Virus record (IMG/VR): IMGVR_UViG_3300035557_000069
Strand: one strand, 5' to 3'
Length of the DNA stretch: 64,000 nucleotides
Origin: a virus
Shown: piece by piece, positions 3,001-57,796 of the stretch
How positions within the stretch are numbered: the first letter of the stretch is position 1
Layout of the letters: the number at the start of each line of letters is the position of its first letter
Position numbers and translations under genes: made by a program
Notes under the pieces: generated by a model
What the model was told of the DNA's origin: nothing
Databases searched by the model: none
What the model saw: the letters and a program-made list of their open reading frames with translations, nothing else

Positions 3001-3858
3001 GCGAACTGTGTAGTCACCGGACTCATCGTAGGTACGGCGGGCCAGTGTAGTTTCAAGGTCCGAGTAAGACGCGGAAGTAACGTCATAGACAAGCTGATTT
3101 TGAACGTAACGCGCAAGTTCAATGAACTCTCCTGTTACTGTAGCCGCCTCGTCCTCAACGTCAAACTCATATGCTGTAAGAGTAAGAGTGATACAATACC
3201 TATCGGCGCCCGGTGCCGCATAGTTATAGGAACCATTAGCGGGATCGAGGAGTGAGTTGTCAGTGAGACTGGAAACAATCGATTCTGTGATTTGGAGACC
3301 AACCTTAAGGTTAACAACATCACTATCCTCATAGAGAATAATCTTTTGTTCCTCGCAAAATACGAAGTAACCCTTGACGAAGAATACCGAATCGGGAATA
3401 GAGAAGAGTTTCGCTGTTCCTGTATAATCCGTAGTGTTTACAATAAAGAATTCATCACTATCAGCAGTGGTAATTTGTTCATTCTGTTGGAAATAGATAC
3501 CACCGTCATAGATGAAATACACTCTAGATGTTGACGTATCAATGTTTCTAACATAGAGAACTTTACCAGTTGCCCCCAAATCTTGACCTGTAATGGTCTT
3601 ATTGAGAAGAACAGAAGCATCCGGATCACTTACATCAATCCAACAAACGTCCGTCTTACTGGTTTTTCCTTCCAGTACAATAGAACCGTCCTTGAAGATG
3701 TGCGATCCAAATCTGGCGATTTGAGTCTGTAGAGCCGTTTGGAGTTGTGTTAACTCTCTCGCTTGAACGGCATACGATGGCTTAAAGAGAATCTTGAGAT
3801 AGTTCTTTGTACCATCGAAATCATCATAATACGGATTGGTATTTAAATTAATTGTCAT
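1..3858 (-). CDS. Large virion structural protein of the baseplate or tail-fibre module, partial. The N-terminus is in the window; the C-terminus runs off the left edge.
   Basis: ATG at 3858 sits 4 nt after the stop of the upstream 787-aa gene. The minus frame (plus-strand triplets starting at positions of 1 mod 3) shows no stop in the first ~1 kb I checked. The ORF track lists only small plus-strand ORFs here, which fits an omitted edge-truncated ORF. It lies in the late structural module. Confidence 0.55.
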   Translation of the reverse strand, partial: MTINLNTNPYYDDFDGTKNYLKILFKPSYAVQARELTQLQTALQTQIARFGSHIFKDGSIVLEGKTSKTDVCWIDVSDPDASVLLNKTITGQDLGATGKVLYVRNIDTSTSRVYFIYDGGIYFQQNEQITTADSDEFFIVNTTDYTGTAKLFSIPDSVFFVKGYFVFCEEQKIILYEDSDVVNLKVGLQITESIVSSLTDNSLLDPANGSYNYAAPGADRYCITLTLTAYEFDVEDEAATVTGEFIELARYVQNQLVYDVTSASYSDLETTLARRTYDESGDYTVRHFGLKIKEHIFEDPDLLTLALEPGKAYVRGYEFETIATTNIDLEKARDFNTVSGRQIQADHGNYFFVETPAGASPPDLASNILIDIQDTAAGAGTKIGECRVRAIEKVAADKFKLFVYDVAMEATYGIPQIVSFKSGTWYANEWHSQQAPAETPVFYTAYRKSAIVPLPNSTVKTLLSGGVSDTSYQAYKTFQDVVISGSQVTIATGSADQVFLSTANNDFYLVNTTSGAEVPVTSVTAPSATQRTINITGSNVTVDIYTKVGVSNVLQRDKNLVTGQVLTVAKTSNLISLNKSDCYRINSIYAVDTAGVDPLPDLDITGFFDFDNGQRDEFYDHGTVQLKSSVVLADIVHADYDNFEINFDYFTATSLTGFFSVDSYTDLDYTDIPVYNSPTGEKYNLRDCLDFRPRRDDGATTITGIFPAITDSIVTVDYSYYLPRVDKLVLTQERKFYVVKGVPSENPAVPTDMEKAMPLYIIRVPAYTDKATDVTFTYIDNRRYTMRDIGKIEKRVERVEYYTALSLLEKQAKDETFLDDGGIERFKNGILVDSFAGHSVGDVNNPDYSCAIDPENRILRPRFAPFSFGYTSLTPTNIIQKGDLVYLPYTEAVCLEQPWATFWVNLNPYLIFKWNGEMQLNPATDTWVETYQKPDVVINVNGENDVYTTLVDNVNNPASVGVRWNDWQTVNRGTVVTDDLNTNVTVSNVTVDGRILQTTTTAVTNNQTTTVNETLNRTGVEISTSATSIVSRDMGTRVVDTSVIPFIRSRFVAFSSRNMKPNTPLCALFDGLNVTEYCTPAVEITTAVLSRDAKKVKTVGSVTKEARILSFRGDRIFVVMDPNSEQFEAGETLQWFVNGNWIAGDAIPTSGVNQPSRIETNAYGDCVGLFHIPNSDVLRFRTGERVFRLADSPGRAPSTAAETKYIASGMSQSTERTIIATRVATISIKPVTETDVKSSSSTQNIVVSSNSVTADVTPPPPVPPSPPLLTCGASEKGAGRTGRFTY

Positions 3859-20668: not shown

Positions 20669-20803
20669 ATGTACTTACACAAGTTTAGTTTGACTGAATT
20701 GGAAGACATGTTGCCTTGGGAGAGAGATGTGTACTTGGCACTCCTTGATAACTATATCGAAGAACAACGTATTAAGAAAGAAAAGAGTATAGGTGCCCTG
20801 TAA
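20669..20803 (+). CDS. Small ORF of 44 aa (MYLHKFSLTELEDMLPWERDVYLALLDNYIEEQRIKKEKSIGAL), translationally coupled (TAATG) to the tape-measure-like gene. Possibly an assembly chaperone.
   Basis: Read directly from the sequence. It is below the ORF track's 60-aa cutoff. In-frame ATGs at 20669 and 20708. Confidence 0.3.
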   Translation: MYLHKFSLTELEDMLPWERDVYLALLDNYIEEQRIKKEKSIGAL

Positions 20804-22905
20804 TGGCCGATAACAAACTCAAGTTCAAGACAGCTAAGGAATTTAACGAGTTCCTTAGTAGACTCCCCGAAGCAAACAGAGAGAAGATTCTGGAGCAACT
20901 CAATGAAGAGAAGCCCTCGGACTCTCCTGTTACTCCGCCTGTTGATCCTGTTAAACAAGAAATCGATAGCCGTATGGAACAAGTCAGAGAAGAAAAGACT
21001 GCTATGTTTCGTGAGAAGGGTATCATCGGTGAAACGGAAGAACTGTCGGATGACTTGATTAAAACACTCATGGGTGTTCCAACAACGGAGTCAATGGCAG
21101 CCATCGATGACTTGGTCCGTGCGGCTGAGAACCGAATGGCGACCTACGATGATTATGTTGCAGAGACTTATAAGAAAGCGAATGAACATCTTCGTGAGCA
21201 AGGCGTTATTAGTGAGGACGAAACGTACACCCCCGAACAGATTAGAGAGTTGGTTGGCTTCAAGGAACGCACTACAGAGATAATGACTGAGGGTGAAAAG
21301 GAAACGATAACAGAGAAAACGATTGAAAATACTGCTGAGAAGATTGTTGAGAAGGTATTCCAGAAGGAACAAGGTAAAAAGCAGAAAGAAGAGAAAGAGC
21401 GCAAGTCTTTATCCCTAGAGGACCTCCAACAGGAACTTGTAGCACTAGAACGCAGACGCTTAGAAGGTGTTTCTGATGTTGCGGCAAAACGCGAGGAAGC
21501 TGTTATCGGTGAACCCAAGAAGAAAGGTGCTAAACAGTATCTAAAGAATGTTGCCCGCGGGTTCTTCATGGGTGAAGAGTATGCCGATAAGAAAGAAAGA
21601 CAAGCCAAGGAAGCCCAACTAGAAAAGAACAAGCTTGACAAGTTTGTGGAGATTGAACAGTCATTTAATCCAACTGCAACAAGAGAAGAGTTGGAGAGTA
21701 AGTATAATAGACAGAATGAAATAACCAAACAACTTGAGGAAAAAGACAAGGAAATTTCCGAGTATAGTAAACTCGGCGTGGGTGATGAGGACTTAAAGCA
21801 AACTAGAGCATACAAGGAAAAGATTGCACTGTCCAAAGAGATGGCAGAGATGGGTACAAAGACGTTCTCCCAATTTGCCAAGAAGAGTGATAAGGAACAG
21901 TATTACGAAGACCTCCAGAGTAAACTTCAACCAACAGAGGAAGAGAAAACAGAAGCAGAGGTAGACGCTCAAGAAAATCTTGAAGTTCTAAAAGAGCAGA
22001 CAGAGATTAGTGGAGAGCAACTGGAACTCTTCAAGGAAGAGACAGAGAAAAACGATGTGTTTCGAACCGCGATGTTGGCAGCCCTGGCGGGTGGTGTTTT
22101 ATCGGGAAACAATACACCGAGTGTCGATATTGACTTGCCTGGTAGCAAGAGTAAGAAGCCGGGTCTGTTGAGCAGAGCGGGTAATGCCATCAAGAGCGCC
22201 GGCAAAGGTGCCATGGGCGGCTTGACGAAGCTGGGTGGTCTATCGGGTGGTGGTGCGGCTATGGGAGCCGCGACATTAGCGGCTGGAGCGGCAGCAGGTT
22301 ACGGTGTTTATCAAGCAGGTCAGGCGGTCCTCACGGGAAGGTCAGACGTTGGTGACTGGTTCAAGAAAAACGTTTACGACTCTGGTAAAGTCACAGATAG
22401 CGAAAAGGAAGCAACGAAGAAAGCAGACATTGAAAAGCTTGAAAAGCTTAATGTGGAGAGACAAGCGCAAGGTAAGAAACCTCTTGACATTGACTATGAA
22501 ACGGGTATGGTAAAGTCTGGAGTATCTAGTATCACAGCGGCACCTACTGCTATTGATAAAAAGACAGGTAAAGAAACATCACTAACACCAACTAATGAAG
22601 TGTCCCAAGTGTCAACTACTCCAACGGGTCCTGCGGCATCCTCCGTTGTACCTGAACCCATTTCACCTGTTGGTCAAACTAAACCAATGCTTCAATCATC
22701 TGCAAAGTTAGCAGAGAGTACAGACCCATTGATTGGTGCTGCCGAGACGATTGGTAAAAACATCAAAGTAAACGTACCCGCACCGATTGTCCAAAACGCT
22801 GGTGGTGGGGGGAAAGATAGGGTGGTTAGTACACCATTCTCACAACGAATCAAAAATCAAGAACCATCCATCTCAACGTATATCCGAGAGAGATATCTAC
22901 CATAA
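20803..22905 (+). CDS. Coiled-coil, E/K-rich tail-length tape-measure-like protein (gp29-like hub/ruler), 700 aa.
   Basis: Long heptad-like E/K-rich helical region, then a hydrophobic segment (AMLAALAGGVLSG) and a Gly-rich C-terminus. It is the last gene of the plus-strand structural block. Confidence 0.5.
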   Translation: MADNKLKFKTAKEFNEFLSRLPEANREKILEQLNEEKPSDSPVTPPVDPVKQEIDSRMEQVREEKTAMFREKGIIGETEELSDDLIKTLMGVPTTESMAAIDDLVRAAENRMATYDDYVAETYKKANEHLREQGVISEDETYTPEQIRELVGFKERTTEIMTEGEKETITEKTIENTAEKIVEKVFQKEQGKKQKEEKERKSLSLEDLQQELVALERRRLEGVSDVAAKREEAVIGEPKKKGAKQYLKNVARGFFMGEEYADKKERQAKEAQLEKNKLDKFVEIEQSFNPTATREELESKYNRQNEITKQLEEKDKEISEYSKLGVGDEDLKQTRAYKEKIALSKEMAEMGTKTFSQFAKKSDKEQYYEDLQSKLQPTEEEKTEAEVDAQENLEVLKEQTEISGEQLELFKEETEKNDVFRTAMLAALAGGVLSGNNTPSVDIDLPGSKSKKPGLLSRAGNAIKSAGKGAMGGLTKLGGLSGGGAAMGAATLAAGAAAGYGVYQAGQAVLTGRSDVGDWFKKNVYDSGKVTDSEKEATKKADIEKLEKLNVERQAQGKKPLDIDYETGMVKSGVSSITAAPTAIDKKTGKETSLTPTNEVSQVSTTPTGPAASSVVPEPISPVGQTKPMLQSSAKLAESTDPLIGAAETIGKNIKVNVPAPIVQNAGGGGKDRVVSTPFSQRIKNQEPSISTYIRERYLP

Positions 22906-31406: not shown

Positions 31407-31906
31407 TTCACTCCTGTACTGTTATAGGCACCAGTGCCGCGTTCTGTTTCATTAAGTTCTTCGACCATCTGGAAATCAGCGTGAAATACCATGGTGAAAA
31501 CACCTTGGGCAATCCTCTCGCCTGGCTCAAAGAATACTGGCTTATGTGAGAAGTTATACACGATAACACCCACCTCACCACGATAGCCACTATCAACAGT
31601 GCCGGGACTATTAGCGACGATGAAACCCTTCTTTAGGGCAGAACCCGACCGGGTACGAACTTGCATCTCCCAACCAGTGGGCACAGCCACTTTGATGCCC
31701 GTGGGAATAACAGCGACACCACCCGCCGCAATAATCCACTTGTCATAACCAGCAAGTTTCATATCAGCGGGCAATTCGGCTGCCCTCAAGTCATAACCCG
31801 AGTCACCCGGCATAGCAAGTTCAAGAGGATTCCCAACATAGTTGTCAAGATAAACAATCTTAACGGGAAGTCTGTTTGGATACATTATATCTCCTTGGGT
31901 GGACAA
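31403..31906 (-). CDS. dut: dUTP diphosphatase (trimeric dUTPase), 167 aa.
   Basis: Motifs AGYDKW/GDSGYDL, GTVDSGYRGE and RIAQG match dUTPase motifs 1-4. Confidence 0.8.
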   Translation of the reverse strand: MSTQGDIMYPNRLPVKIVYLDNYVGNPLELAMPGDSGYDLRAAELPADMKLAGYDKWIIAAGGVAVIPTGIKVAVPTGWEMQVRTRSGSALKKGFIVANSPGTVDSGYRGEVGVIVYNFSHKPVFFEPGERIAQGVFTMVFHADFQMVEELNETERGTGAYNSTGVK

Positions 31907-32247
31907 ACAATCCTCAGAATGGCAGAGAGTTGTTCTGGTTTAAATGGTTTTTGGAGCCAAGCAGAAGCACCACACGTTTTCGCTTGTTCTTTGCCAACTG
32001 TTGTTAACATCAGAATTGGTGTGAATCTATAACCAGGTGTTTTTCTTAGTTCCTGGCAGAGAGTACAACCATCCATATTCGGCATGTTTAAATCAGTAAT
32101 AATGAGGTCAAACTTGTGTTCTTTGGCAAGACGTAGCGCCATGACACCATCACTTGCTTCCATGACTTTATAGCGCATCTCTGTTAGAGTCATATTTATA
32201 ACGCTTCTAACTGTAGCAGAATCATCAACAACTAAAACCAATTTCAT
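31885..32247 (-). CDS. Stand-alone CheY-like response-regulator receiver (REC) domain protein, 120 aa.
   Basis: All phospho-acceptor pocket residues are present: VVDDS (D12/D13), IITDLNMP (D57), LMLTT (T87), LQKPF (K109). Confidence 0.75.
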   Translation of the reverse strand: MKLVLVVDDSATVRSVINMTLTEMRYKVMEASDGVMALRLAKEHKFDLIITDLNMPNMDGCTLCQELRKTPGYRFTPILMLTTVGKEQAKTCGASAWLQKPFKPEQLSAILRIVCPPKEI

Positions 32248-34694: not shown

Positions 34695-35138
34695 TTACTT
34701 TTTCTCCCACCAAAAATCAATCCACTCGGAGTTTAACCGCTTGTCGATTTTTCGGCCGAAGAAATCCACGGGTACATGATTTCCTTGATTGTATACACAA
34801 CAGACAATATCCACTTGGTCGCGAGTGCATTCCCATTGCTCTAGAACCTCTTCAACGGTCTTACCAGTGTCAACATACTCGCAGACAAGCAGGATTTTCG
34901 CGCCAGCTTTAATCACGGCTTTAAGTGCTTCGTTATGCTCACGTAACTTTTCTTGATGACACCAATAGAGCAGGGTGGGTCTAGAGTGACGACCACAAAG
35001 CTTATGAGATAGAATGATAGAGGGGACACATCCACCCTTAACCAATCCAACAATGCGGTCATACTTCTTACCACATGCCCTAATCTCCCAAGCGATACGT
35101 TCTATATCCTCGGAGAAATCTTGAAAAGTGTATTCCAT
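34695..35138 (-). CDS. Type I phosphoribosyltransferase, HPRT-like PRPP-binding motif, 147 aa.
   Basis: ILLVCEYVDTGKTV matches the PRPP-binding loop (VLIVEDIIDTGKT). Confidence 0.5.
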   Translation of the reverse strand: MEYTFQDFSEDIERIAWEIRACGKKYDRIVGLVKGGCVPSIILSHKLCGRHSRPTLLYWCHQEKLREHNEALKAVIKAGAKILLVCEYVDTGKTVEEVLEQWECTRDQVDIVCCVYNQGNHVPVDFFGRKIDKRLNSEWIDFWWEKK

Positions 35139-35723: not shown

Positions 35724-35955
35724 CGACCTCTCCTTGGTAGTTTACTCCTGCGATCCGAACACAACCATATTGGGCCTGACTGTCAAAACATTTATGAGTG
35801 AAAAACTTGGTCTTTCCACCGTTGAAAATCGACCAGGCGCCCTTTTCGGAACTAGCGTGATAGCGACTTAATAACTTAACGGGTTCAACAAGGACCAACA
35901 AACCACAAGCTGAACACTTCCATTGGACTTGATACTTATAAAATCTCTCAGCCAT
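35662..35955 (-). CDS. Cys-containing hypothetical protein, 97 aa.
   Basis: ORF track. Contains CSACG and a few further Cys. Confidence 0.35.
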   Translation of the reverse strand: MAERFYKYQVQWKCSACGLLVLVEPVKLLSRYHASSEKGAWSIFNGGKTKFFTHKCFDSQAQYGCVRIAGVNYQGEVDVHGETETPVADQTKEESHS

Positions 35956-36673
35956 GCACCACCCCCGTTGACTCTATATCAAAGATTTCTTGGATTGCTT
36001 GCGCTATTGCAACAGCAAGTTCTCTGTGTTCCTGTTGTGTTCCTTCGTCCGTTCTAACATCAATGTAGTGAATGAATGAACGAATTGTTCCCTGCACATA
36101 CAGGCGGCTGGGTGTACAACCCTCGGGTAGAACGCACCTTGCTTGCTCTTTTGCAATCCCGTTATCAAGTGCCCACTGATACACTTGTTTGGCATGTTCA
36201 ATCAGGGCTTTCTGTCTGTCAATGAAACGGGATTGAATACTAACGTGGTCTAGATTACAGGGGTCAAGTGGGACACTCTTCTGCCTGTTCTTGGGGTCCT
36301 GCATTCGTGCTTCGCGAATAACGAACTCCATTTGTGTTGGGTCCGCATATCGCTGGCTGAACTCTTGAAAGGTGAATGACCTGTGCCTCAAGAGTTGTCT
36401 GGCAATGTCTCTCGTTGTTTCAATCTCAACAGTGATTGAACACATTTCAAAAGGAGAGAAGTGTTTATGTTTTAATAGATAATCTATTAGTTTTTCTGAT
36501 GTATCTTTGTTGAGTTGATTTGTTGGATTGCTAATTCTAGCGCAATACGCTATAAGTTCTTTTATGGACTGTATGCCCGTTTTCTCAAAGAACTCTTCGA
36601 TGGGTTGTGAGTAACAGACCAACGATGCCCGCATGTTTTCATACCTTTCAAAGTTGTATGGATCCATACACAT
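35948..36673 (-). CDS. thyX: Flavin-dependent thymidylate synthase ThyX, 241 aa.
   Basis: ThyX signature RHRSFTFQEFSQRY (RHR-x7-S-x-RY). Confidence 0.85.
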   Translation of the reverse strand: MCMDPYNFERYENMRASLVCYSQPIEEFFEKTGIQSIKELIAYCARISNPTNQLNKDTSEKLIDYLLKHKHFSPFEMCSITVEIETTRDIARQLLRHRSFTFQEFSQRYADPTQMEFVIREARMQDPKNRQKSVPLDPCNLDHVSIQSRFIDRQKALIEHAKQVYQWALDNGIAKEQARCVLPEGCTPSRLYVQGTIRSFIHYIDVRTDEGTQQEHRELAVAIAQAIQEIFDIESTGVVHG

Positions 36674-36703: not shown

Positions 36704-36937
36704 TTACTCCACGGGTGTAGTGGGAGTAACCTGCGGAATTGCCTGACCACGAATCTTACCAATGAGATCCGCGACACGCACATAAGGACCGGCTGCCAGC
36801 GCATCAAGCGCCAGGTTGACTTCATCAACAGTCAGAACAAGGGTGATTAGCTTTGGCTCAACGACTTCCTGAGTATTCTCTTCTTTTCCTTCTGTCATCT
36901 TCTTACCTTTCATGGTTACAACGTTATTTTTCTTCAT
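36704..36937 (-). CDS. Small protein translationally coupled to the radical-SAM gene, 77 aa. Possible partner, RRE-like (RiPP-recognition-element) or substrate.
   Basis: Overlaps the rSAM stop by 14 nt. Lys-rich N-terminus, then LITLVLTVDEVNLALDALAAGPYVRVADLIGKI. Confidence 0.4.
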   Translation of the reverse strand: MKKNNVVTMKGKKMTEGKEENTQEVVEPKLITLVLTVDEVNLALDALAAGPYVRVADLIGKIRGQAIPQVTPTTPVE

Positions 36938-37985
36938 CTGTTTTGATCCATTTCAGTTCTGCTGAGGATGTGGTTGTTATGTGTGAATCTCGAAAACCCG
37001 GCGGATACGTCTGTACTGCATACATCATAACTTGATTGTCCATCCACGGTGGTCTGATGTTATCACTTTGTTTTGGGAATGGTGTTTCAATCGGTTGTAG
37101 TCTCATTATCTTTTGAACCAGAGACGGGGATTGTTCAAAACACACACGATTGCAATGGTCCTTACAACACTTGGGTGTACCAAATCGCCAATCACGGAAA
37201 CCAGTCTCCCAGATTTGCCCCATGCTTTCCTTTAGGAGATTGCCTTGAACCGGCGCATCCGTCCAAGAAACCATAGACAGACAAGGAATAACATCGCCGT
37301 TGCAAAGAACACCCAGAGAAGACATTCCCGCGCCGCAGGCACCGCCGTTAAAGTTGTCAGCAACAATAACATCTTTGTATCCCTTCATGGCACTATTAAT
37401 CTTATCACACAACGTCTTGGTTGCATACTCGGATTCATAGATGGCGTTAGAGTTTTTGTCTTTGTACATGGTCAACTGAATCTGCCAAAGCAACCCCCTC
37501 TGCTGAACAACGTCAAAGATGGTTTCAAACATCCATAGATTTGTTTTGTTGAAGTTGGTGATGATGGTCGGGCGATACTTGGTATCCTTGAAGTACTTCG
37601 TATACAGTTCACACTCTCGTTCGGTGTTAATAGAGACGCCGATACCATCATAAAGGTCAAGAATGGCACCCCACTCGGATTCACCATAGGGCATAGAACC
37701 ATCGGTCTTAGGCAAAGACTGGGGATTAACCAAAATCTTCGACTTGATACCTTTACATTTGAAGATATCGGTAATTTCGTAGTGTGCTTTCCAAGGTACA
37801 AGCATAGGATCACCACCAGAAATATTCACCTCTTTGGGTGGATACTTAGCAATCGCTTGTGCAATCTCAGCATACTTTTCGGGATCACGCGACACTCTTA
37901 TTCCATGTTCCTTGGAACCACAATAGTCACAGTTGTTGGTGCATCGGTCGGTAATCTCCCAGATTACTTCATTCAGTCTAATCAT
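36924..37985 (-). CDS. Radical SAM enzyme with a C-terminal SPASM/twitch-type auxiliary Fe-S domain, 353 aa.
   Basis: CxxxCxxC cluster CTNNCDYC. Gly-rich SAM motif ISGGDP. C-terminal GGACGAGMSSLGVLCNGDVIPC ... CCKDHCNRVC matches the SPASM Cys pattern. Confidence 0.75.
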   Translation of the reverse strand: MIRLNEVIWEITDRCTNNCDYCGSKEHGIRVSRDPEKYAEIAQAIAKYPPKEVNISGGDPMLVPWKAHYEITDIFKCKGIKSKILVNPQSLPKTDGSMPYGESEWGAILDLYDGIGVSINTERECELYTKYFKDTKYRPTIITNFNKTNLWMFETIFDVVQQRGLLWQIQLTMYKDKNSNAIYESEYATKTLCDKINSAMKGYKDVIVADNFNGGACGAGMSSLGVLCNGDVIPCLSMVSWTDAPVQGNLLKESMGQIWETGFRDWRFGTPKCCKDHCNRVCFEQSPSLVQKIMRLQPIETPFPKQSDNIRPPWMDNQVMMYAVQTYPPGFRDSHITTTSSAELKWIKTDEEK

Positions 37986-39962: not shown

Positions 39963-40805
39963 TCATACATCATTGTCATCCTGATTATCTTGGGTGCATT
40001 TGCAACCATCAGCGCAATCCTCATAGCCTGGCCCGCAATCGCATATCTTGGTGCGAAACTGTTCTAATTGACCAAAGCGTTTCTCAAAGCCGGGAGTGTT
40101 CTGTCCTAGCTTGAGAACGTCCCAATACAGACCAACAACGTTGTCCAAGAACTGGTCATCATAGTGCATATGCCCATGGTACCACTTTTTGAAGCCCGAA
40201 TTGTTTCTGATTTCAAGAAACATATCATTCAAATGTTGCGCAACCAAGTCCCCCGTCTTAGCACTTGAAGACTCAAACGGACTCATACGTGGCATGGCTC
40301 TCAGAGGTGGTACATGGGTGATGACATAGTTGATGGCCTTACTGCTCCGAATGTTGCTCCAAGCGAGGTCTAGTTCCTGCTCGTTAGGATACTCTCTAGC
40401 CCACCAAGAGATATCTTCGGTGCGGTATTGCTTGTCAATAGACAGACCACCACCAAACACGAATACAGTATCATCACCAAACGTGTAAATGTTTCCACGA
40501 CGAAGATGATAGATTTCACCCCTTTCGGTCTTGACTACACCGACCGGTCCACCGAACTTCTCTTCAACTTCGAGGCGGTCAACCATATCGAAGTTCTCAT
40601 GGTTGCCGTCCACGAAGCAAGTGGTCCAAGGCTTCTCAGCCAGCCAATCCAACCAGTATCGTTCTTCCTTTGTATTAGCCCAAAGACCACCGAAGTCGCC
40701 AGCAATGATGACAACATCCTCTTTAGTCAAAAGGGTGCCTTGTGGAAAGTTGTCTGTGGTGAATCTATGAAAATCACCATGTGTGTCGCCTGTAATGTAG
40801 ACCAT
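39963..40805 (-). CDS. Calcineurin-like metallophosphoesterase with a Cys-rich C-terminal tail, 280 aa.
   Basis: Metallophosphatase motifs GDTHGD, GDFGG, GNHE and GHMHY. Confidence 0.7.
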   Translation of the reverse strand: MVYITGDTHGDFHRFTTDNFPQGTLLTKEDVVIIAGDFGGLWANTKEERYWLDWLAEKPWTTCFVDGNHENFDMVDRLEVEEKFGGPVGVVKTERGEIYHLRRGNIYTFGDDTVFVFGGGLSIDKQYRTEDISWWAREYPNEQELDLAWSNIRSSKAINYVITHVPPLRAMPRMSPFESSSAKTGDLVAQHLNDMFLEIRNNSGFKKWYHGHMHYDDQFLDNVVGLYWDVLKLGQNTPGFEKRFGQLEQFRTKICDCGPGYEDCADGCKCTQDNQDDNDV

Positions 40806-48842: not shown

Positions 48843-50228
48843 TTAGATAACAACCTCGTACTTGCTGACAGTGTTCAGCATAACATTACGTGGATTAGTA
48901 ATGTCGCCAGAAAGTACACCCTTAAGGACCTGCGGGCTGTAACCACCAATCAACGCGGTGTTACCGTCGTTGCGGAGAACAGGTAGATTGGAACCACGCC
49001 CGTTCACGTTCCAGAACACAACAGCCGGCATCTTGTAACCGGAAGCCTCATACTGCTTACGGATACGATGATAGGTCGAGTCATCCGCCCCATTGATACA
49101 ACCATCGAACTGCATATCCGAAACAATCAGGATAGCATCAGGTAGTTCCGACTGGTCAAGACGGTTCTTCACTGCCGTGTTGAGGATGGTAGCGAACACT
49201 GCATCCAGATTAGTGTTCATACCCCATTCCGAACGCTCAATATAGTGCATCTTCTGCCCGAGCGTGGTGTACTTGGAAATGTCCTTGAACTCAGGACGCT
49301 CGGAGAACGTCACGAACTGGTTCTTGAACTGACCCTCATTGCGTTCAGCACAATAGATACCCAGACCAACAGCAATATCGATTGCCTGAATAGACCCCGA
49401 GACCGGCGTGAACATGGAACCAGAAACGTCGATGACAGGCAGAATGTTACGTTGCTTGCCTTCGAACAGGTCAGGAAGAGCATTCCACTGAACATCCGCG
49501 GAAGCATTGTGTTGACGGAGACCACGGACGATATCGTGGGGGAATACAGCACCCGCCTTGATAGTGTCCTTACCTTCCTTCACACGATTGATGAAGGCAA
49601 CAAAACGCTCGTTGTCGTTACGTCCGAACGCCTTACCGTAGCGAGACATAGCCACAGAAGGGACCGAGGAATACTTGATAACATCCCAACGCTTCGCGCA
49701 CATGTCCTGCTCAACAGTCCTGGACAGACCAACAATCAGCTTACGGAAGCGAGACTCGGAGAGACCCATTTCCTTCGCCAGCTTGAAGAACGAAGCCTTA
49801 CGGCGTGGAACCCACTTTGCCGCCAGACCATTGCCTTCGCGAAGAGCGTTAGCATAGACACGGATCGCGTTAGCCTCACAAGGAGTACCAACGAGTTCCA
49901 GAACGTCATCCCAACGACCGTACTTCGGCACCAGGTCGATGTTGCGATTGACGTAGGTAGGATGGGTGTTAGCCAGATACTTGAGAGCCTTACGGAAGGC
50001 AGAACGCTCCCCCGCGCCGCCGCGGCAGTCACGACCCCAGAACACGACCTGCAGGGCAGTCTTCGCGTCTTCGGTCAGAGCCGAACGAAGGTCATTGGTG
50101 ATATCCTCACGACGGTACTGAACCATCTTGAAGAACAGATCCACGCATGGATCAAGGGAGGAACGATTGGTGACCGAACCGTTTTCGGTCAGAGTGGTGT
50201 TGTTGACGGCATTGAACAGAGTGGACAT
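48843..50228 (-). CDS. von Willebrand factor A domain protein with an ~250-aa helical N-terminal DUF2828-like region, 461 aa.
   Basis: MIDAS motif ILPVIDVSGSMFTP (DxSxS). The N-terminal VVFWGRDCRGGAGERSAFRKALKYLANTHP is typical of the DUF2828 family as I recall it. Confidence 0.65.
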   Translation of the reverse strand: MSTLFNAVNNTTLTENGSVTNRSSLDPCVDLFFKMVQYRREDITNDLRSALTEDAKTALQVVFWGRDCRGGAGERSAFRKALKYLANTHPTYVNRNIDLVPKYGRWDDVLELVGTPCEANAIRVYANALREGNGLAAKWVPRRKASFFKLAKEMGLSESRFRKLIVGLSRTVEQDMCAKRWDVIKYSSVPSVAMSRYGKAFGRNDNERFVAFINRVKEGKDTIKAGAVFPHDIVRGLRQHNASADVQWNALPDLFEGKQRNILPVIDVSGSMFTPVSGSIQAIDIAVGLGIYCAERNEGQFKNQFVTFSERPEFKDISKYTTLGQKMHYIERSEWGMNTNLDAVFATILNTAVKNRLDQSELPDAILIVSDMQFDGCINGADDSTYHRIRKQYEASGYKMPAVVFWNVNGRGSNLPVLRNDGNTALIGGYSPQVLKGVLSGDITNPRNVMLNTVSKYEVVI

Positions 50229-53755: not shown

Positions 53756-55180
53756 TCACAAAATGGGTTTATTTGCGTTCTCCCGAATCTTCTCAAAGTT
53801 AGTCAAGGCAACAAACGGCTCATACAGTTTCTTCGTCATAGTGTAGACCAAGTTCAGGATAATCTTGTCTTCCCAATTCTGGTCATCCAGACGAACGGTT
53901 TTTGCCTTGCCTTCCTCGTCCTCCACGACAGTGAGGCGACCACGTTTGCTTTCTTTGCCCGGTGCTTCCTTGAAAACATCAATCCATTTACCATTGACAA
54001 GCAGGGCGCAACACTTCATGGCGAATCCGTAGGTGTCGCGGTTAACGTGTTGGAGCAGGGCACCACCCATCCCGAATGCTACGTTGTCAGCACTGAAACC
54101 TGCCCACTTGAGAGTAGCTAGGATTTCGTTGATGCTGGCTTTGTTGATGCCGTCTCCTTGAATAACGCGAACATAAGGAGGAAGCACTTTGTAACCCTTG
54201 CTGTTCCGAGTGGTACCAAACTTCTCTGCAAGGATTTCAACACAACGGCGTACGGTCGGAGCGGGGTCCCCCGAGTCCGGACGAATAACCAGAGTACCAC
54301 CAACTGCGCCGAGGGCTTCAACATCTGCCTTCAACTCGGTACCCCAGAGTTCACAAGCCTTGAAGATATCGTAGCTGTCCGAAACAACAGCCACAAGCTT
54401 GCCAGGACCGCCGTATTGTTTCAGCATATTGCGGTATGCTTCAACTTCGTTGTCTTTACCCCAACTGGTGATGGTGCTATGTTCAGCCGCAGGAATACTG
54501 AACCCTGCCATCTCTGCACCGTAGTAGTGATTGGCATACTGAACACCCTCAACAGTGTCCGAGCCGAGAAAGTTTACAAGGTGAGCCGCACCGCCGATAC
54601 CAGCAGTTTCACCCGAAGAGCAACCACGACCACCGAAGTCATGGAGTTTGAATGCGACTTGCTCTTGAACGTCACTGGTCCGCTCAAGGAAGTCTTTGAT
54701 GACTTTCTTGCAGTCATAACTTACAGTGGCGACCGAAGACGGGTACCAGATGGCGCGAAGTAGAGCCGTTTCGAGGAAGTTCACGATCCAAAAGCACACA
54801 GGATCAGTACAACATATCGTAAGTAAGCAATTACGATTTTTAATAACAGTTCCTTCAGGTAAAGCCTTGATAGTGACAGGCATATATCCTTTATACTCGG
54901 TTAGTATATACTCAAATCCTTGTTTATTGAAAGGAACCCCATGTGCTTTACAGAACAGTTCAGCCTCTTCAATATCAGCTTGAGTAATCGGGGTGAGTAG
55001 ATAGTCCTTGATGAACATCTGTAATCCAAAGAACACAAGATGATCTCCTCCTCTCGCTTCAATATACGATTGCATCCCCTCGGCTCCCGGAGGATATTGT
55101 CCTTGATGTTCAGTGTTATTGATACCGATTGAATGCGAGAATTTGTATGAATCGGTGGATAGTAGGATATTTCTTTTCAT
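53756..55180 (-). CDS. nadV: Nicotinamide phosphoribosyltransferase (NadV/Nampt), 474 aa.
   Basis: Length and motifs (STDSYKFSH N-terminus, IRPDSGDP, GDGI) are typical of Nampt. Confidence 0.85.
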   Translation of the reverse strand: MKRNILLSTDSYKFSHSIGINNTEHQGQYPPGAEGMQSYIEARGGDHLVFFGLQMFIKDYLLTPITQADIEEAELFCKAHGVPFNKQGFEYILTEYKGYMPVTIKALPEGTVIKNRNCLLTICCTDPVCFWIVNFLETALLRAIWYPSSVATVSYDCKKVIKDFLERTSDVQEQVAFKLHDFGGRGCSSGETAGIGGAAHLVNFLGSDTVEGVQYANHYYGAEMAGFSIPAAEHSTITSWGKDNEVEAYRNMLKQYGGPGKLVAVVSDSYDIFKACELWGTELKADVEALGAVGGTLVIRPDSGDPAPTVRRCVEILAEKFGTTRNSKGYKVLPPYVRVIQGDGINKASINEILATLKWAGFSADNVAFGMGGALLQHVNRDTYGFAMKCCALLVNGKWIDVFKEAPGKESKRGRLTVVEDEEGKAKTVRLDDQNWEDKIILNLVYTMTKKLYEPFVALTNFEKIRENANKPIL

Positions 55181-55958: not shown

Positions 55959-56762
55959 TTAGATAATGTTAGTTGTGGTAATGATGCCGGCGCCCAGCCC
56001 ATTCTGGTCGCTAATCTCATTACGATTGATTGGTGATAGCTTGATGAAGAAATACTTTGGGTCAAAATACCTCTTGAGTTTGTCAATGTCAAAGTCCGCT
56101 TCATCGACCAGTGTAAGATTCACAGTGGTCTTCAACTTGCTTTTGGTGCGAATCTGACCAAGTTCTTCAATGGTCATCAGATTGTTCACTGGAATAAGTT
56201 CACGCCTGCGGTCTTCATCTAGTGAATGAAGACTAATCTGGAGCGTGATGTTGTCCTTAATCCAAGAGAAGTCCGACCCCCTAACGCCGATAGTGCTGAT
56301 ATAGTGATGAAACAGAATATCATTTCTGTGTTGCTGGAACATATCAATAGCTTTCCTGACTTCATCAATATTCAGAAAAGGCTCACCCATGCGAGTATAG
56401 TTAATCTTGAGTTCCTTGGGATGTTCGAAGCCAAGAGAATCCAAGAATTCCTCGTTCTTCTCAAGCATAACAAACTTGACTTGGTCTGTAATCTCCTTAG
56501 CAGTAAGATTGCGCCAGCCCTTCATCTGCCCAGTGGCGCAGAACTTACATCCAACAGGACAACCGGACATAGTGGACACACCAATCATCCAGCGTTCTGC
56601 TCTGGAGCCGATATTACCATCCCGCAACGCATTGGTGCCGTTGACACACTCCTTGGTATAGTAAGGCAGAAATGTGTCCGTAGTCTCAATCAGTCGCCCG
56701 TCTTCCAGTTCAAGACAGTAGACGGATCCGTTTGTGAAATGTCGGCTTCGTAGTTCTTTCAT
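55959..56762 (-). CDS. Radical SAM enzyme with an RlmN/Cfr-type cluster motif, N-terminally minimal, 267 aa.
   Basis: CPVGCKFCATG matches the RlmN/Cfr CxxGCxFCxTG pattern. GEPFLN is present. The ~60-aa N-terminal RNA-binding domain of RlmN is absent. Confidence 0.55.
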   Translation of the reverse strand: MKELRSRHFTNGSVYCLELEDGRLIETTDTFLPYYTKECVNGTNALRDGNIGSRAERWMIGVSTMSGCPVGCKFCATGQMKGWRNLTAKEITDQVKFVMLEKNEEFLDSLGFEHPKELKINYTRMGEPFLNIDEVRKAIDMFQQHRNDILFHHYISTIGVRGSDFSWIKDNITLQISLHSLDEDRRRELIPVNNLMTIEELGQIRTKSKLKTTVNLTLVDEADFDIDKLKRYFDPKYFFIKLSPINRNEISDQNGLGAGIITTTNII

Positions 56763-56764
56763 CG

Positions 56765-57796
56765 TTAAATTCCTAGCAAGTCGGTAATGATATCGTAGTG
56801 ATCCTCAAAAAGACGGTCGGGCTCCAGTTCCGAGATGGGCAGCCAGAAAGCCTTCTCCGCATCATCGGCGCCTTTGACTCGCGGCAGGTCACCACAGTTC
56901 GGTAGTTCAATGAGGAATGCGTTAGTCACAGTACGTCCGCGAAGACTACGTTCAGGAGCATCATACACCTTCTGGCGCTTGATACAACCCCTCAGGACGG
57001 GCATGGGAACCTTAATCTTAGTCTCTTCACGAAGTTCCCGAAGCATACCATCAATAAGCGTTTCCTCTTGATTGAGAAAGCCACCCGGCAAGGCATACAG
57101 TCCTTTACCCGGTTCTGCCCGGCGCTTCACCAGCAGAATATGACCAGACTGAATGACAACAGCATCCGTGGTCAGAAATGTCACGGGATAAGGAGCAACA
57201 GCCCATGACTCTTTATATCCCTTGATGTAGAAATACTCCTGAACCAGTTGCTTGAACTCCGGTGTTTGAGTAAAGCCTTGGAGATACTGGAACACGGTCG
57301 GTGGTACAAACTTCTCAAAGTAATCAAACTTGAAGTATCTATCACGCAAGGCGGTGGCGTGAAGATGGCTCAGTTCTTCATCAAAGCCCGCGGGCGAGAT
57401 GAAATGCCACTGCGGGAACATATCGATGTACCAACTGGTGTAGTCTTCCTTGTTACCCGTGATAGCGATACTCCCAAAGTCCGGATCGCCGTTGTCGGAA
57501 AGGATGACTTGGTCCACCACGTTCTGTACATGCATGGCCCATTTCTGGTCATTGTAGGTGAAGTCGTTGAGATAACCATACAGAACGCGGCTATCGTTAT
57601 CAGTGACGCCTCGAATCATAGACACACGTTCACTAGCAGTGAACGGGTTCTTGATTGTACGAGGACGATTAGCCGTGCCGATTAAGACAATGACCTTCTC
57701 GGAGTACTTCAAGGCGTTTTCTAGAATAGCTTGATGGTTCTTGTGGAAGGGCTGAAATCGCCCGATGAATACGCAATACTTGTGTTTTTTAAGCAT
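56765..57796 (-). CDS. natV: Bifunctional NMN adenylyltransferase/Nudix hydrolase (NatV-like), 343 aa.
   Basis: N-terminal nucleotidyltransferase motif CVFIGRFQPFHKNHQ. C-terminal Nudix box GGFLNQEETLIDGMLRELREETKIK. Confidence 0.85.
   Translation of the reverse strand: MLKKHKYCVFIGRFQPFHKNHQAILENALKYSEKVIVLIGTANRPRTIKNPFTASERVSMIRGVTDNDSRVLYGYLNDFTYNDQKWAMHVQNVVDQVILSDNGDPDFGSIAITGNKEDYTSWYIDMFPQWHFISPAGFDEELSHLHATALRDRYFKFDYFEKFVPPTVFQYLQGFTQTPEFKQLVQEYFYIKGYKESWAVAPYPVTFLTTDAVVIQSGHILLVKRRAEPGKGLYALPGGFLNQEETLIDGMLRELREETKIKVPMPVLRGCIKRQKVYDAPERSLRGRTVTNAFLIELPNCGDLPRVKGADDAEKAFWLPISELEPDRLFEDHYDIITDLLGI

What the first reader, a model, noticed from the sequence alone, without database searches (positions are those of the whole stretch)
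36704..37985. Radical-SAM/SPASM enzyme with a translationally coupled 77-aa partner, next to thyX
SPASM-domain radical SAM enzymes typically modify peptides or proteins (RiPP maturases, anSME) and usually work with a small partner such as a precursor or a PqqD-like RRE. The 77-aa ORF overlapping the enzyme's stop could be that partner. This is a candidate small modification system in a T4-type phage with no assigned function.
Basis: inference. Interest (0 to 1): 0.55.

Follow-up and report, generated by a model that had tools for sequence, protein, structure and literature searches.

The report
Stand-alone phage radical SAM enzyme
The radical SAM enzyme gene is real, but the small gene overlapping its end is an unrelated neighbour; the enzyme belongs to a large uncharacterised family found in big uncultivated phages, whose only constant companion is a tyrosine-motif tail on the protein itself.

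Summary
A 353-aa radical SAM + SPASM-type ORF (36924-37985, minus strand) is overlapped by 14 nt by a 77-aa ORF (36704-36937), followed by thyX, in a phage with a T4-type baseplate.

- About 15 independent homologue loci in large phages have no related small ORF and no thyX. The pairing survives only in one syntenic sister phage, and there without overlap.
- The 77-aa protein belongs to a separate phage mini-protein family found in small phages that lack the enzyme.
- It is predicted to be a helical hairpin, has no Cys, and is not PqqD/RRE-like.
- Start/stop overlaps are routine in this genome (34 of 87 same-strand pairs).

The enzyme is an orphan. It lacks an RRE, lacks the canonical CX2CX5CX3C SPASM motif (so it is twitch-like), and reaches no curated family cutoff. 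It has no conserved neighbour, no match in cultured phages, and almost none in cellular genomes.

Its distinctive feature is a hypervariable Pro-rich C-terminal tail with 1-6 copies of [V/T/I]-x-[V/M/L]-Tyr-[Gly/Ala]-Val, where Tyr is never replaced.

My best inference, unproven, is a peptide-directed enzyme that acts on its own tail.

The parts
36924..37985 (-). 353-aa radical SAM enzyme of the SPASM/twitch branch, in a family found almost only in phages
37920..37943 (-). CX3CX2C motif (C15, C19, C22) that binds the SAM-cleaving [4Fe-4S] cluster
   Evidence: Invariant in 44 aligned homologues; motif located at 37943
37140..37337 (-). Auxiliary Fe-S domain (residues 217-282). Conserved Cys are C217, C235, C274 and C278, plus C273 in >=90% of homologues. 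The pattern is CC-x3-C, not CX2CX5CX3C
   Evidence: Pfam SPASM match 217-278; conserved columns; 0 of 120 homologues carry CX2CX5CX3C; weak profile alignment to the BtrN twitch domain
36927..37139 (-). Hypervariable, Pro-rich C-terminal tail (residues 283-353). Residues 303-353 are mostly predicted disordered
   Evidence: pLDDT <50 for 303-307, 309-317 and 328-353; tail comparison across 120 homologues
37014..37031 (-). The single copy here (V-M-M-Y322-A-V) of the family's tail motif [V/T/I]-x-[V/M/L]-Y-[G/A]-V
   Evidence: Y322 is invariant in alignment A1. Homologues carry 1-6 copies. In this context Tyr occupies the position 190 of 190 times, never Phe or Trp
36704..36937 (-). 77-aa gene: a real phage mini-protein and an unrelated neighbour of the enzyme. 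The conserved ~45-aa domain is residues 30-72 (36722-36850)
   Evidence: 57 family representatives including the query itself; helical hairpin, pLDDT 84; not co-conserved with the enzyme
35948..36673 (-). thyX (flavin-dependent thymidylate synthase), an adjacent gene with no detectable link to the enzyme
   Evidence: Pfam Thy1 E 7e-44. thyX lies near the enzyme only in the window and the syntenic sister phage L001/L002

Best explanation
The 353-aa gene encodes a stand-alone radical SAM enzyme of the SPASM/twitch branch. It belongs to a large, uncharacterised family found almost only in big uncultivated phages. The 77-aa ORF and thyX are only neighbours.

The one element that always travels with the catalytic domain is part of the same polypeptide. 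It is a variable, proline-rich C-terminal tail carrying 1-6 copies of a strict [V/T/I]-x-[V/M/L]-Tyr-[Gly/Ala]-Val motif.

Proposed mechanism (inferred, not shown):
1. The N-terminal [4Fe-4S] cluster (C15/C19/C22) reductively cleaves SAM to a 5'-deoxyadenosyl radical.
2. That radical abstracts a hydrogen from a residue of the Tyr-Gly/Ala-Val motif in the enzyme's own tail, either in cis or between enzyme molecules.
3. A single auxiliary cluster (C217, C235, C274, C278) takes up the electron.
4. The product is a modified tail, for example a Tyr-to-Val three-residue cyclophane crosslink, or epimerisation or dehydrogenation of the Val.

Fusing the substrate to the enzyme would explain why there is no RRE domain, no leader peptide gene and no conserved partner gene.

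Confidence breaks down as follows:
- Enzyme class, and 'the 77-aa ORF is not a dedicated partner': about 0.9.
- 'Peptide-directed rather than small-molecule-directed': about 0.5.
- 'Its own tail is the substrate': about 0.3.
For: Shown:
- Domains and motifs.
- No conserved neighbour among 13 non-redundant homologue loci clustered at BLAST level, and none in two further contexts.
- The 77-aa family and the enzyme occur independently in both directions.
- The CX3CX2C motif starts at residue 15, so there is no N-terminal RRE, and no PqqD hit.
- All 120 listed homologues have a tail. Every intact one has at least one motif. The only two proteins with truncated tails are disrupted genes: an IS605/TnpB insertion with the tail displaced downstream, and an AAA-to-TAA nonsense codon.
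- Motif statistics: 278 occurrences, V/T/I at -3 (80%), V at +2 (91%), G or A at +1 (92%), Pro-rich flanks, spacing mode 10-13 aa.
- Tyr fills the position 190 of 190 times, although Phe is half as common as Tyr in the tails.
- Recent tandem duplication of a unit in L015.
- Three in-frame motif copies occur in IMG/VR only in tails of this family.

Precedent:
- Radical SAM/SPASM maturases act on repeated short motifs: TVGG and TIGSVS (PMC10878394), and multiple aromatic-X-X motifs in triceptides (PMC11499958).
Against: - No chemistry was tested.
- AlphaFold2 gives the tail low confidence (pLDDT 35-54), and I could not inspect coordinates to see whether the motif approaches the active site.
- No radical SAM enzyme with a fused substrate is known to me.
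- Some tails end in a CxC...CxxC zinc-ribbon (P0007, P0008, P0016, P0037). That looks more like a docking or tethering appendage than a released peptide.
- No protease, exporter or cleavage site is evident.
- An invariant Tyr could instead ligate an auxiliary cluster, as Tyr339 does in TigE. An enzyme's own C-terminal tail can also occupy a substrate groove as a regulatory element, as in TigE and SkfB (PMC10878394).
- The window protein has only one motif copy.
Confidence: 0.4

Rival explanations
1. Small-molecule, nucleotide or sugar chemistry. The enzyme is a twitch-type radical SAM enzyme like BtrN, BlsE, viperin or MoaA. It modifies a metabolite, nucleotide or DNA base during infection. 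The Tyr tail is a lid, an auxiliary-cluster ligand or an autoinhibitory element.
For: - Only 4-5 conserved auxiliary Cys and no CX2CX5CX3C motif, so it is twitch-like (definition in PMC5715301).
- The profile aligns weakly to the BtrN twitch domain.
- The gene sits in a nucleotide-metabolism region: thyX, dUTPase/dCD, a phosphoribosyltransferase and DNA ligase.
- No precursor gene or RRE is present.
- Tyr ligation of an auxiliary cluster has precedent (PMC10878394).
Against: - thyX and the other nucleotide genes are not near the enzyme in any other lineage.
- Up to six selectively maintained motif copies, with linkers of 16-83 aa, are hard to reconcile with a lid or ligand.
- Matches to viperin models cover only the generic N-terminal ~90 residues and are far below cutoff: 27 bits against 180.
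Confidence: 0.25
2. Trans-acting protein modifier, anSME-like. The enzyme modifies a host or phage protein encoded elsewhere. The repeated Tyr motifs are short linear docking motifs that add a beta-strand and recruit the target, a reductase or a chaperone with avidity.
For: - Variable copy number in a disordered, Pro-flanked tail is typical of linear binding motifs.
- Zinc-ribbon endings in some homologues suggest tethering.
- There is no conserved neighbour.
Against: - No other ORF in the 64-kb window carries clustered motifs.
- No candidate target was identified.
- Strict Tyr with never Phe is unusual for a purely hydrophobic beta-strand docking motif.
- NCBIfam gives no anSME-class assignment; the best family score is 31.6 bits against a cutoff of 425.
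Confidence: 0.2
3. The enzyme and the translationally coupled 77-aa protein form a two-gene peptide-modification system, with the small protein as precursor or PqqD-like RRE.
For: - The genes are adjacent on the same strand with a 14-nt overlap.
- The pair is retained in the sister phage L001/L002.
- SPASM-type enzymes commonly work with small partners (general knowledge; PMC5715301).
Against: - The sister phage is syntenic across the whole 10-kb region, so retention there is uninformative, and the overlap is lost there.
- About 15 other enzyme loci lack any 77-aa-family ORF, even at HMM E<=10.
- Eight 77-aa-family loci lack the enzyme.
- The predicted helical hairpin has no beta-sheet, there is no PqqD Pfam hit in 58 members, and there is no PDB fold match.
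- The protein has no Cys. Its conserved positions (N41, P51, V55, Q65, Q69) do not resemble a core peptide.
- 39% of same-strand gene pairs in the window overlap.
Confidence: 0.05

Closest known systems
Triceptide synthases (3-residue cyclophane-forming radical SAM/SPASM enzymes, e.g. ChlB, HaaB, HtkB)
   Same: - Same radical SAM core plus C-terminal Fe-S domain.
- Their substrates carry one to several aromatic-X-X motifs, with YDR native for ChlB (PMC11499958). This has the same form as the repeated Tyr-Gly/Ala-Val here.
   Different: - Triceptide systems have a separate precursor gene with a leader. The solved ChlB entry is a complex of the enzyme with that leader region.
- Here there is no RRE and no precursor gene, and the motifs are fused to the enzyme.
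- The family lacks the CX2CX5CX3C motif.
- Sequence identity is only about 14%.
- No crosslink has been demonstrated.
anSME (anaerobic sulfatase-maturating enzyme)
   Same: - It has no RRE.
- It acts directly on a short motif within a protein.
   Different: - anSME has a full seven/eight-Cys SPASM domain with two auxiliary clusters (PMC5715301). This family conserves only 4-5 Cys.
- No sulfatase-type target was identified.
- No NCBIfam membership.
Twitch-domain enzymes (BtrN, SkfB, MoaA)
   Same: - A shortened SPASM domain that lacks CX2CX5CX3C and probably binds one auxiliary cluster (definition in PMC5715301).
- The profile aligns weakly to the BtrN twitch region.
   Different: - BtrN and MoaA act on small molecules. 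SkfB has an RRE and a neighbouring precursor gene.
- None has a repeated Tyr-motif tail.
- None is phage-restricted.
TvgB/TigE cyclopropylglycine synthases
   Same: - Radical SAM/SPASM enzymes that modify a Val or Ile in each copy of a short repeated motif (TVGG, TIGSVS).
- TigE's own C-terminal tail lies in a substrate groove, and a Tyr ligates its Aux I cluster (PMC10878394).
   Different: - They have an N-terminal RRE, a separate precursor gene and a full SPASM domain.
- Their diagnostic GYW motif was not searched for here.
- The repeats here are in cis.
Borosin-type fused enzyme-substrate proteins (OphMA); recalled from my own knowledge, not tested
   Same: The architectural idea is the same: a catalytic domain followed by a C-terminal tail that is its own substrate.
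   Different: The chemistry is entirely different (SAM-dependent N-methyltransferase, fungal or bacterial). There is no homology. This is a lead only.

Membership tests
Radical SAM superfamily (PF04055) | CX3CX2C cluster motif and a Pfam score above the gathering cutoff | tested here: met
   C15-x3-C19-x2-C22 is invariant in 44 sequences. PF04055 scores 38.4 bits against a cutoff of 29.5. The (beta/alpha)6 core is predicted with pLDDT >90.
SPASM domain (PF13186), sequence-model membership | Pfam SPASM model above the gathering cutoff | tested here: met
   29.9 bits against a cutoff of 21.5, residues 217-278.
Full SPASM subfamily (two auxiliary clusters) | Seven-Cys motif that includes CX2CX5CX3C | tested here: not met
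   0 of 120 family members contain CX2CX5CX3C; the usual pattern is CC-x3-C. Conserved Cys are C217, C235, C274 and C278, plus C273. The definition is taken from PMC5715301.
Twitch-type radical SAM enzymes | Shortened SPASM domain lacking CX2CX5CX3C and binding a single auxiliary cluster | tested here: inconclusive
   The sequence pattern fits, and there is a weak profile alignment to the BtrN twitch domain (E 0.001). The number of clusters cannot be determined without Fe/S analysis or EPR.
RiPP maturase system (radical SAM + RRE + precursor) | RRE domain (winged helix-turn-helix, 3 strands + 3 helices), fused or as a discrete PqqD-like protein | tested here: not met
   The enzyme begins at the cluster motif (residue 15) and has no PqqD hit. 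The 77-aa protein is a two-helix hairpin with no Pfam hit and no PDB fold match.
RiPP maturase system (radical SAM + RRE + precursor) | A precursor peptide gene co-conserved next to the enzyme | tested here: not met
   There is no conserved neighbour in 13 non-redundant loci. The 77-aa family HMM finds nothing in the other enzyme loci. No downstream ORFs carry the tail motif.
Triceptide synthases (3-CyFE) | [quoted passage not shown] | not testable with these tools
   [not shown]
PqqE / PqqD | NCBIfam TIGR02109 above cutoff; a PqqA/PqqD partner | tested here: not met
   20.8 bits against a cutoff of 381. No PqqD-like protein was found. The Foldseek match to PqqE is general fold similarity only (TM 0.54, 14% identity).
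Viperin / pVip | Full-length match above the curated cutoff | tested here: not met
   NF038283 scores 27 bits against a cutoff of 180, covering residues 7-93 only. The PADLOC pVip match covers only residues 8-94.
Phage 45-aa helical-hairpin mini-protein family (unnamed), for the 77-aa ORF | Domain consensus IxLxLTxDEVNxxLxALxxxPYxxVAxLIxKIRxQAxPQ | tested here: met
   phmmer finds 56 representatives besides the query itself, with E down to 1e-7. Nearly invariant columns are N41, P51, V55, Q65 and Q69. The family HMM scores the window ORF at E 3e-24, though that ORF is one of the sequences the HMM was built from.

The most novel reading that the evidence does not exclude
This phage-associated family would be the first radical SAM maturase whose substrate is fused to the enzyme. 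The catalytic domain would install a Tyr-centred modification on each Tyr-Gly/Ala-Val unit of its own C-terminal tail. One candidate is a triceptide-like Tyr-to-Val cyclophane. That would make it a one-gene, leader-less and RRE-less RiPP-like system carried by large phages, with copy number tuned by tandem duplication.
Probability: 0.25. Interest if true: 0.8.

Novelty: new variant of a known kind. Interest (0 to 1): 0.45.

Why it matters
The finding as written is not a new two-gene system. Adjacency and start/stop overlap in tightly packed phage genomes should not be read as functional coupling.

What remains is a sizeable family with these properties:
- at least 189 protein clusters at 90% identity;
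- almost entirely from phage or metagenome contigs of up to 455 kb;
- no match in 50,697 deposited phage genomes at tblastn E<=1e-3;
- only 3 hits in a pattern-limited scan of 185,579 species genomes.

It is a radical SAM enzyme with an unusual architecture and no known function.

If the tail is the substrate, three things follow:
- It would extend RiPP-type radical chemistry to a single-polypeptide format.
- It would give phage biology a new class of self-modified proteins or peptides.
- It would be directly testable with one recombinant protein and mass spectrometry.

If instead the enzyme acts on a metabolite or a host protein, it is a widespread and unexplored phage auxiliary function.

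Tried and rejected
- **Similarity to deposited phages.** Megablast of the region and tblastn of the enzyme found no match, so there is no annotated relative to borrow from.
- **Word-indexed search with the 77-aa protein.** It returned only itself. The exhaustive phmmer search was needed to reveal the family.
- **Locus search with 77-aa alignments A2 and A4.** I replaced them with a degenerate DNA pattern for KIRGQAxPQ.
- **Conserved neighbours of the enzyme.**
  - None was found by BLAST clustering.
  - Metallophosphoesterase genes recur near the enzyme in five contexts, but only three belong to one subfamily. Such genes are, to my knowledge, common in large phages, so I treated this as unproven.
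  - ThiF, RtcB, AAA_33 and GIY-YIG neighbours are sporadic.
- **Stand-alone peptides carrying the tail motif.** A synthetic multi-motif protein query found nothing. A three-motif DNA pattern in IMG/VR gave four in-frame hits, all in tails of this family, and seven out-of-frame hits, about what I estimated for chance.
- **Naturally split enzyme and tail genes.** The only two tail-less homologues are an IS605 insertion and a nonsense mutant.
- **Glycyl-radical activase idea (YG motif).** Rejected, because Ala replaces Gly in 42% of motif copies.
- **Promoter and terminator scan.** It showed nothing that separates or joins the three genes.
- **Literature searches.** Searches for phage or jumbo-phage radical SAM/SPASM enzymes found no description of this family.
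- **Fusion in P0037.** It carries an N-terminal DUF7919. This is a single case and was not informative.
Full report
**1. The observation**

- A 353-aa ORF lies at 36924..37985 on the minus strand.
- A 77-aa ORF lies at 36704..36937; its ATG is 14 nt upstream of the larger ORF's stop.
- A 241-aa ORF lies at 35948..36673.

Pfam assigns Radical_SAM (E 1.9e-9) and SPASM (E 6.7e-7), both above their gathering cutoffs, to the 353-aa protein. It assigns Thy1/ThyX (E 7e-44) to the 241-aa protein and nothing to the 77-aa protein.

The window carries T4-type baseplate, hub-lysozyme and tail-tube genes, so 'T4-type phage' is reasonable. An identical copy of the enzyme is recorded on a 69-kb JGI contig.

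**2. Is the 77-aa ORF the enzyme's partner?**

The 77-aa ORF is a real gene. Its homologue in the closest related phage (L001/L002) is 46% identical. An exhaustive phmmer search of 1.84 billion representatives found 56 relatives besides the query itself at E<=1e-3, most of them 47-140 aa long. They share a ~45-aa domain with the consensus IxLxLTxDEVNxxLxALxxxPYxxVAxLIxKIRxQAxPQ, and some proteins carry two copies.

Four lines of evidence argue against a partner role.

*Co-occurrence fails in one direction: the enzyme occurs without the small ORF.*
- The enzyme has 189 homologues.
- I held flanks for L003, 17 IMG/VR loci, L029, L030 and others.
- tblastn with all window neighbours, BLAST clustering of all flanking ORFs, and a profile HMM of the 77-aa family searched at E<=10 all agree. 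The small ORF and thyX lie next to the enzyme only in the window and in L001/L002.
- That phage is syntenic with the window over the whole ~10-kb region, so retention there says nothing about function. In it the small ORF starts 30 nt after the enzyme's stop.
- The gene downstream of the enzyme in the other lineages is 51 to 269 aa long, and these genes are unrelated to each other.

*Co-occurrence also fails in the other direction: the small ORF occurs without the enzyme.*
- 77-aa-family members occur in Thiohalocapsa phage LS06-2018-MD04, in an uncultured 34-kb phage, in Pseudomonas phage phiGM22-3, and on five IMG/VR contigs of 8-47 kb.
- There they sit next to tail-fibre, holin, small-terminase, homing-endonuclease or Hsp20 genes.
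- None of these loci has an enzyme homologue in the held flanks.
- No deposited phage genome matches the enzyme at tblastn E<=1e-3.

*Fold and composition do not fit.*
- AlphaFold2 with a 57-sequence alignment (pLDDT 84) predicts a coil for residues 1-36, then helices 37-48 and 52-70, with no beta-sheet.
- An RRE is a winged helix-turn-helix with three strands and three helices (PMC10878394).
- Foldseek finds no PDB match. None of 58 family members hits PqqD or any other Pfam family convincingly.
- The protein has no Cys.

*The overlap is not informative.* 34 of 87 same-strand neighbour pairs in the window overlap.

**3. What the enzyme is**

The CX3CX2C motif (C15, C19, C22) is invariant. It starts 15 residues from the N-terminus, so there is no fused RRE.

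AlphaFold2 (pLDDT 83) gives a (beta/alpha)6 core, a beta-hairpin/helix auxiliary domain, and a tail from residue ~303 that is mostly below pLDDT 50.

Structural neighbours are enzymes of the SPASM/twitch branch.

| Search | Matches |
|---|---|
| Foldseek | The same set, at TM ~0.55 and 12-16% identity |

The enzyme therefore groups, by a modest margin, with peptide/protein-modifying enzymes.

It reaches no curated family cutoff. The best NCBIfam score is 31.6 bits against a cutoff of 425. PqqE scores 20.8 against 381, and viperin 27 against 180.

Although the Pfam SPASM model matches, none of 120 family members has the CX2CX5CX3C motif; the pattern is CC-x3-C. Only C217, C235, C274 and C278, plus C273 in >=90% of members, are conserved. 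By the definition quoted in PMC5715301 this is a twitch-like domain, probably with one auxiliary cluster. That is an inference. The family profile aligns weakly to BtrN's twitch region.

**4. Distribution**

Homologues are about 40% identical to the window protein and come from metagenomic and viral contigs of up to 455 kb. In IMG/VR they sit on contigs of 80-372 kb, which are large or jumbo phages.

A pattern scan of one genome for each of 185,579 bacterial and archaeal species found only three candidates. One lies on an 18-kb contig of a Paceibacterota MAG, and I did not check whether that contig is viral.

The family is thus essentially restricted to phages and is uncharacterised. I found no description of it in the literature held.

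**5. The feature that does travel with the enzyme**

After the CCKDxC motif every homologue has a hypervariable, Pro-rich tail of about 40-180 aa in intact proteins. The tail carries 1-6 copies of a short motif.

From 278 occurrences:
- position -3 is V, T or I in 80%;
- position -1 is V, M, L or A in 80%;
- then Tyr;
- position +1 is G (50%), A (42%) or S (6%);
- position +2 is V (91%);
- the flanks are Pro-rich;
- the most common spacing is 10-13 residues.

In the context [VTI]x[VMLAIY]-X-[GA]V, X is Tyr in 190 of 190 cases. Phe is nevertheless half as frequent as Tyr in the tails overall, and the pattern occurs once in all the catalytic cores.

The window protein has one copy, V-M-M-Y322-A-V. 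Y322 is the only invariant column outside the catalytic domains.

Further observations on the tail:
- The distance from CCKD to the first motif ranges from 16 to 83 residues.
- L015 shows a recent tandem duplication of a unit.
- The only two homologues with truncated tails are damaged genes. One is split by an IS605-type TnpB/Y1 transposase insertion, with the motif-bearing remainder downstream. The other is cut by an AAA-to-TAA change, with the motif still in frame beyond it.
- A DNA pattern for three in-frame motifs found, across IMG/VR, only tails of this family plus about the number of out-of-frame hits I estimated for chance.
- No other ORF in the window has clustered motifs.

**6. Mechanism**

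Shown:
- a radical SAM enzyme with a twitch-like auxiliary domain;
- no RRE;
- no conserved partner gene;
- an obligatory repeat-bearing Tyr tail.

Inferred: the simplest reading that accounts for all four is that the tail is what the enzyme works on. The 5'-deoxyadenosyl radical would abstract a hydrogen within the Tyr-G/A-Val unit, and the auxiliary cluster would accept the electron.

The form of the motif (aromatic, small residue, beta-branched residue, repeated) matches substrates of known radical SAM/SPASM maturases:
- triceptide synthases crosslink the aromatic ring to C-beta of the third residue on aromatic-X-X motifs, often several per precursor, and ChlB's native motif is YDR (PMC11499958);
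- TvgB and TigE modify Val or Ile in repeated TVGG and TIGSVS units (PMC10878394);
- radical SAM epimerases target Val or Ile (my own knowledge).

I put this at about 0.3.

The alternatives are serious.
- The Tyr could ligate the auxiliary cluster, or the tail could be a pseudo-substrate lid. Both have precedent in TigE and SkfB. The true substrate would then be a small molecule or nucleotide.
- The motifs could be docking elements for a target protein acting in trans.
- Zinc-ribbon endings on some tails and the low AlphaFold confidence for the tail count against a simple 'released peptide' picture.
- I could not inspect model coordinates, so the position of the motif relative to the active site is untested.

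**7. Verdict**

The enzyme class and its lack of an assigned function are right. The 77-aa partner and the idea of a two-gene system are not supported, and adjacency to thyX is incidental.

What is really there is an orphan radical SAM family, restricted mainly to phages, with an unusual cis tail of strict Tyr motifs. I rate it a new variant of a known kind with moderate interest. The interest would rise sharply if the tail proves to be a fused substrate.

Noticed in passing
window 55959-56762 (-), with 56765-57796 (-) and 53756-55180 (-): A second radical SAM gene is present: 267 aa, motif CPVGCKFC, PF04055 E 3e-8, no SPASM domain. It sits between an NMN-adenylyltransferase/NUDIX fusion and a nicotinamide phosphoribosyltransferase, so the phage encodes at least two radical SAM enzymes. 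This one is embedded in an NAD-salvage cluster.
   Followed up: partly
L042 3001-6519; L043 1157-2240: Two homologues of the enzyme are disrupted in their tails. In L042 an IS605-type element (TnpB on the opposite strand, plus a Y1 transposase) is inserted at the start of the tail, and the Tyr-motif remainder is encoded about 2.4 kb downstream. In L043 a Lys codon has become TAA. A TnpB gene is also present on the L043 contig. IS200/IS605 elements therefore occur in these phage genomes.
   Followed up: partly
homologues P0007, P0008, P0016, P0037 (C-termini); P0037 N-terminus: Some family members end their Tyr-motif tail with a CxC...CxxC zinc-ribbon-like segment. P0037 additionally has an N-terminal DUF7919 domain fused to the enzyme.
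   Followed up: no
window 39963-40805 (-); L001 2950-3726; L003 12081-12713; L017 7921-8667; L030 4221-4988: A calcineurin-like metallophosphoesterase gene lies within a few kb of the enzyme in five contexts, and is directly adjacent in L017 and L030. Only three of the five belong to one subfamily, so this may be coincidence.
   Followed up: partly
window 31885-32247 (-): A 120-aa stand-alone response-regulator receiver domain (PF00072, E 5e-27) is encoded between a dUTPase/dCTP-deaminase-like gene and the DNA ligase. This struck me as an unusual phage gene.
   Followed up: no
L023 4001-4168; L027 3001-3153; L028 ~2968-3174; L044 8491-8706; L048 5689-5916: In small podophage-like genomes the 77-aa-family mini-protein recurs at the junction of the tail-fibre, holin and small-terminase genes. 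In phiGM22-3 the match overlaps an ORF annotated 'putative terminase small subunit'. Its function is unknown, but this position is a lead.
   Followed up: partly
window 48843-50228 (-): A 461-aa protein matches DUF2828 + DUF7788 and phrog_850, which is annotated 'RNA-binding protein'. It was not examined further.
   Followed up: no
window 20803-22905 (+): A 700-aa ORF just downstream of the tail-tube and other plus-strand structural genes has no PHROG or Pfam match.
   Followed up: no
window 34695-35138 (-): A 147-aa phosphoribosyltransferase-like protein (PF00156, E 3e-5, just below cutoff) is 79% identical in the sister phage and lies in the same block as thyX.
   Followed up: no
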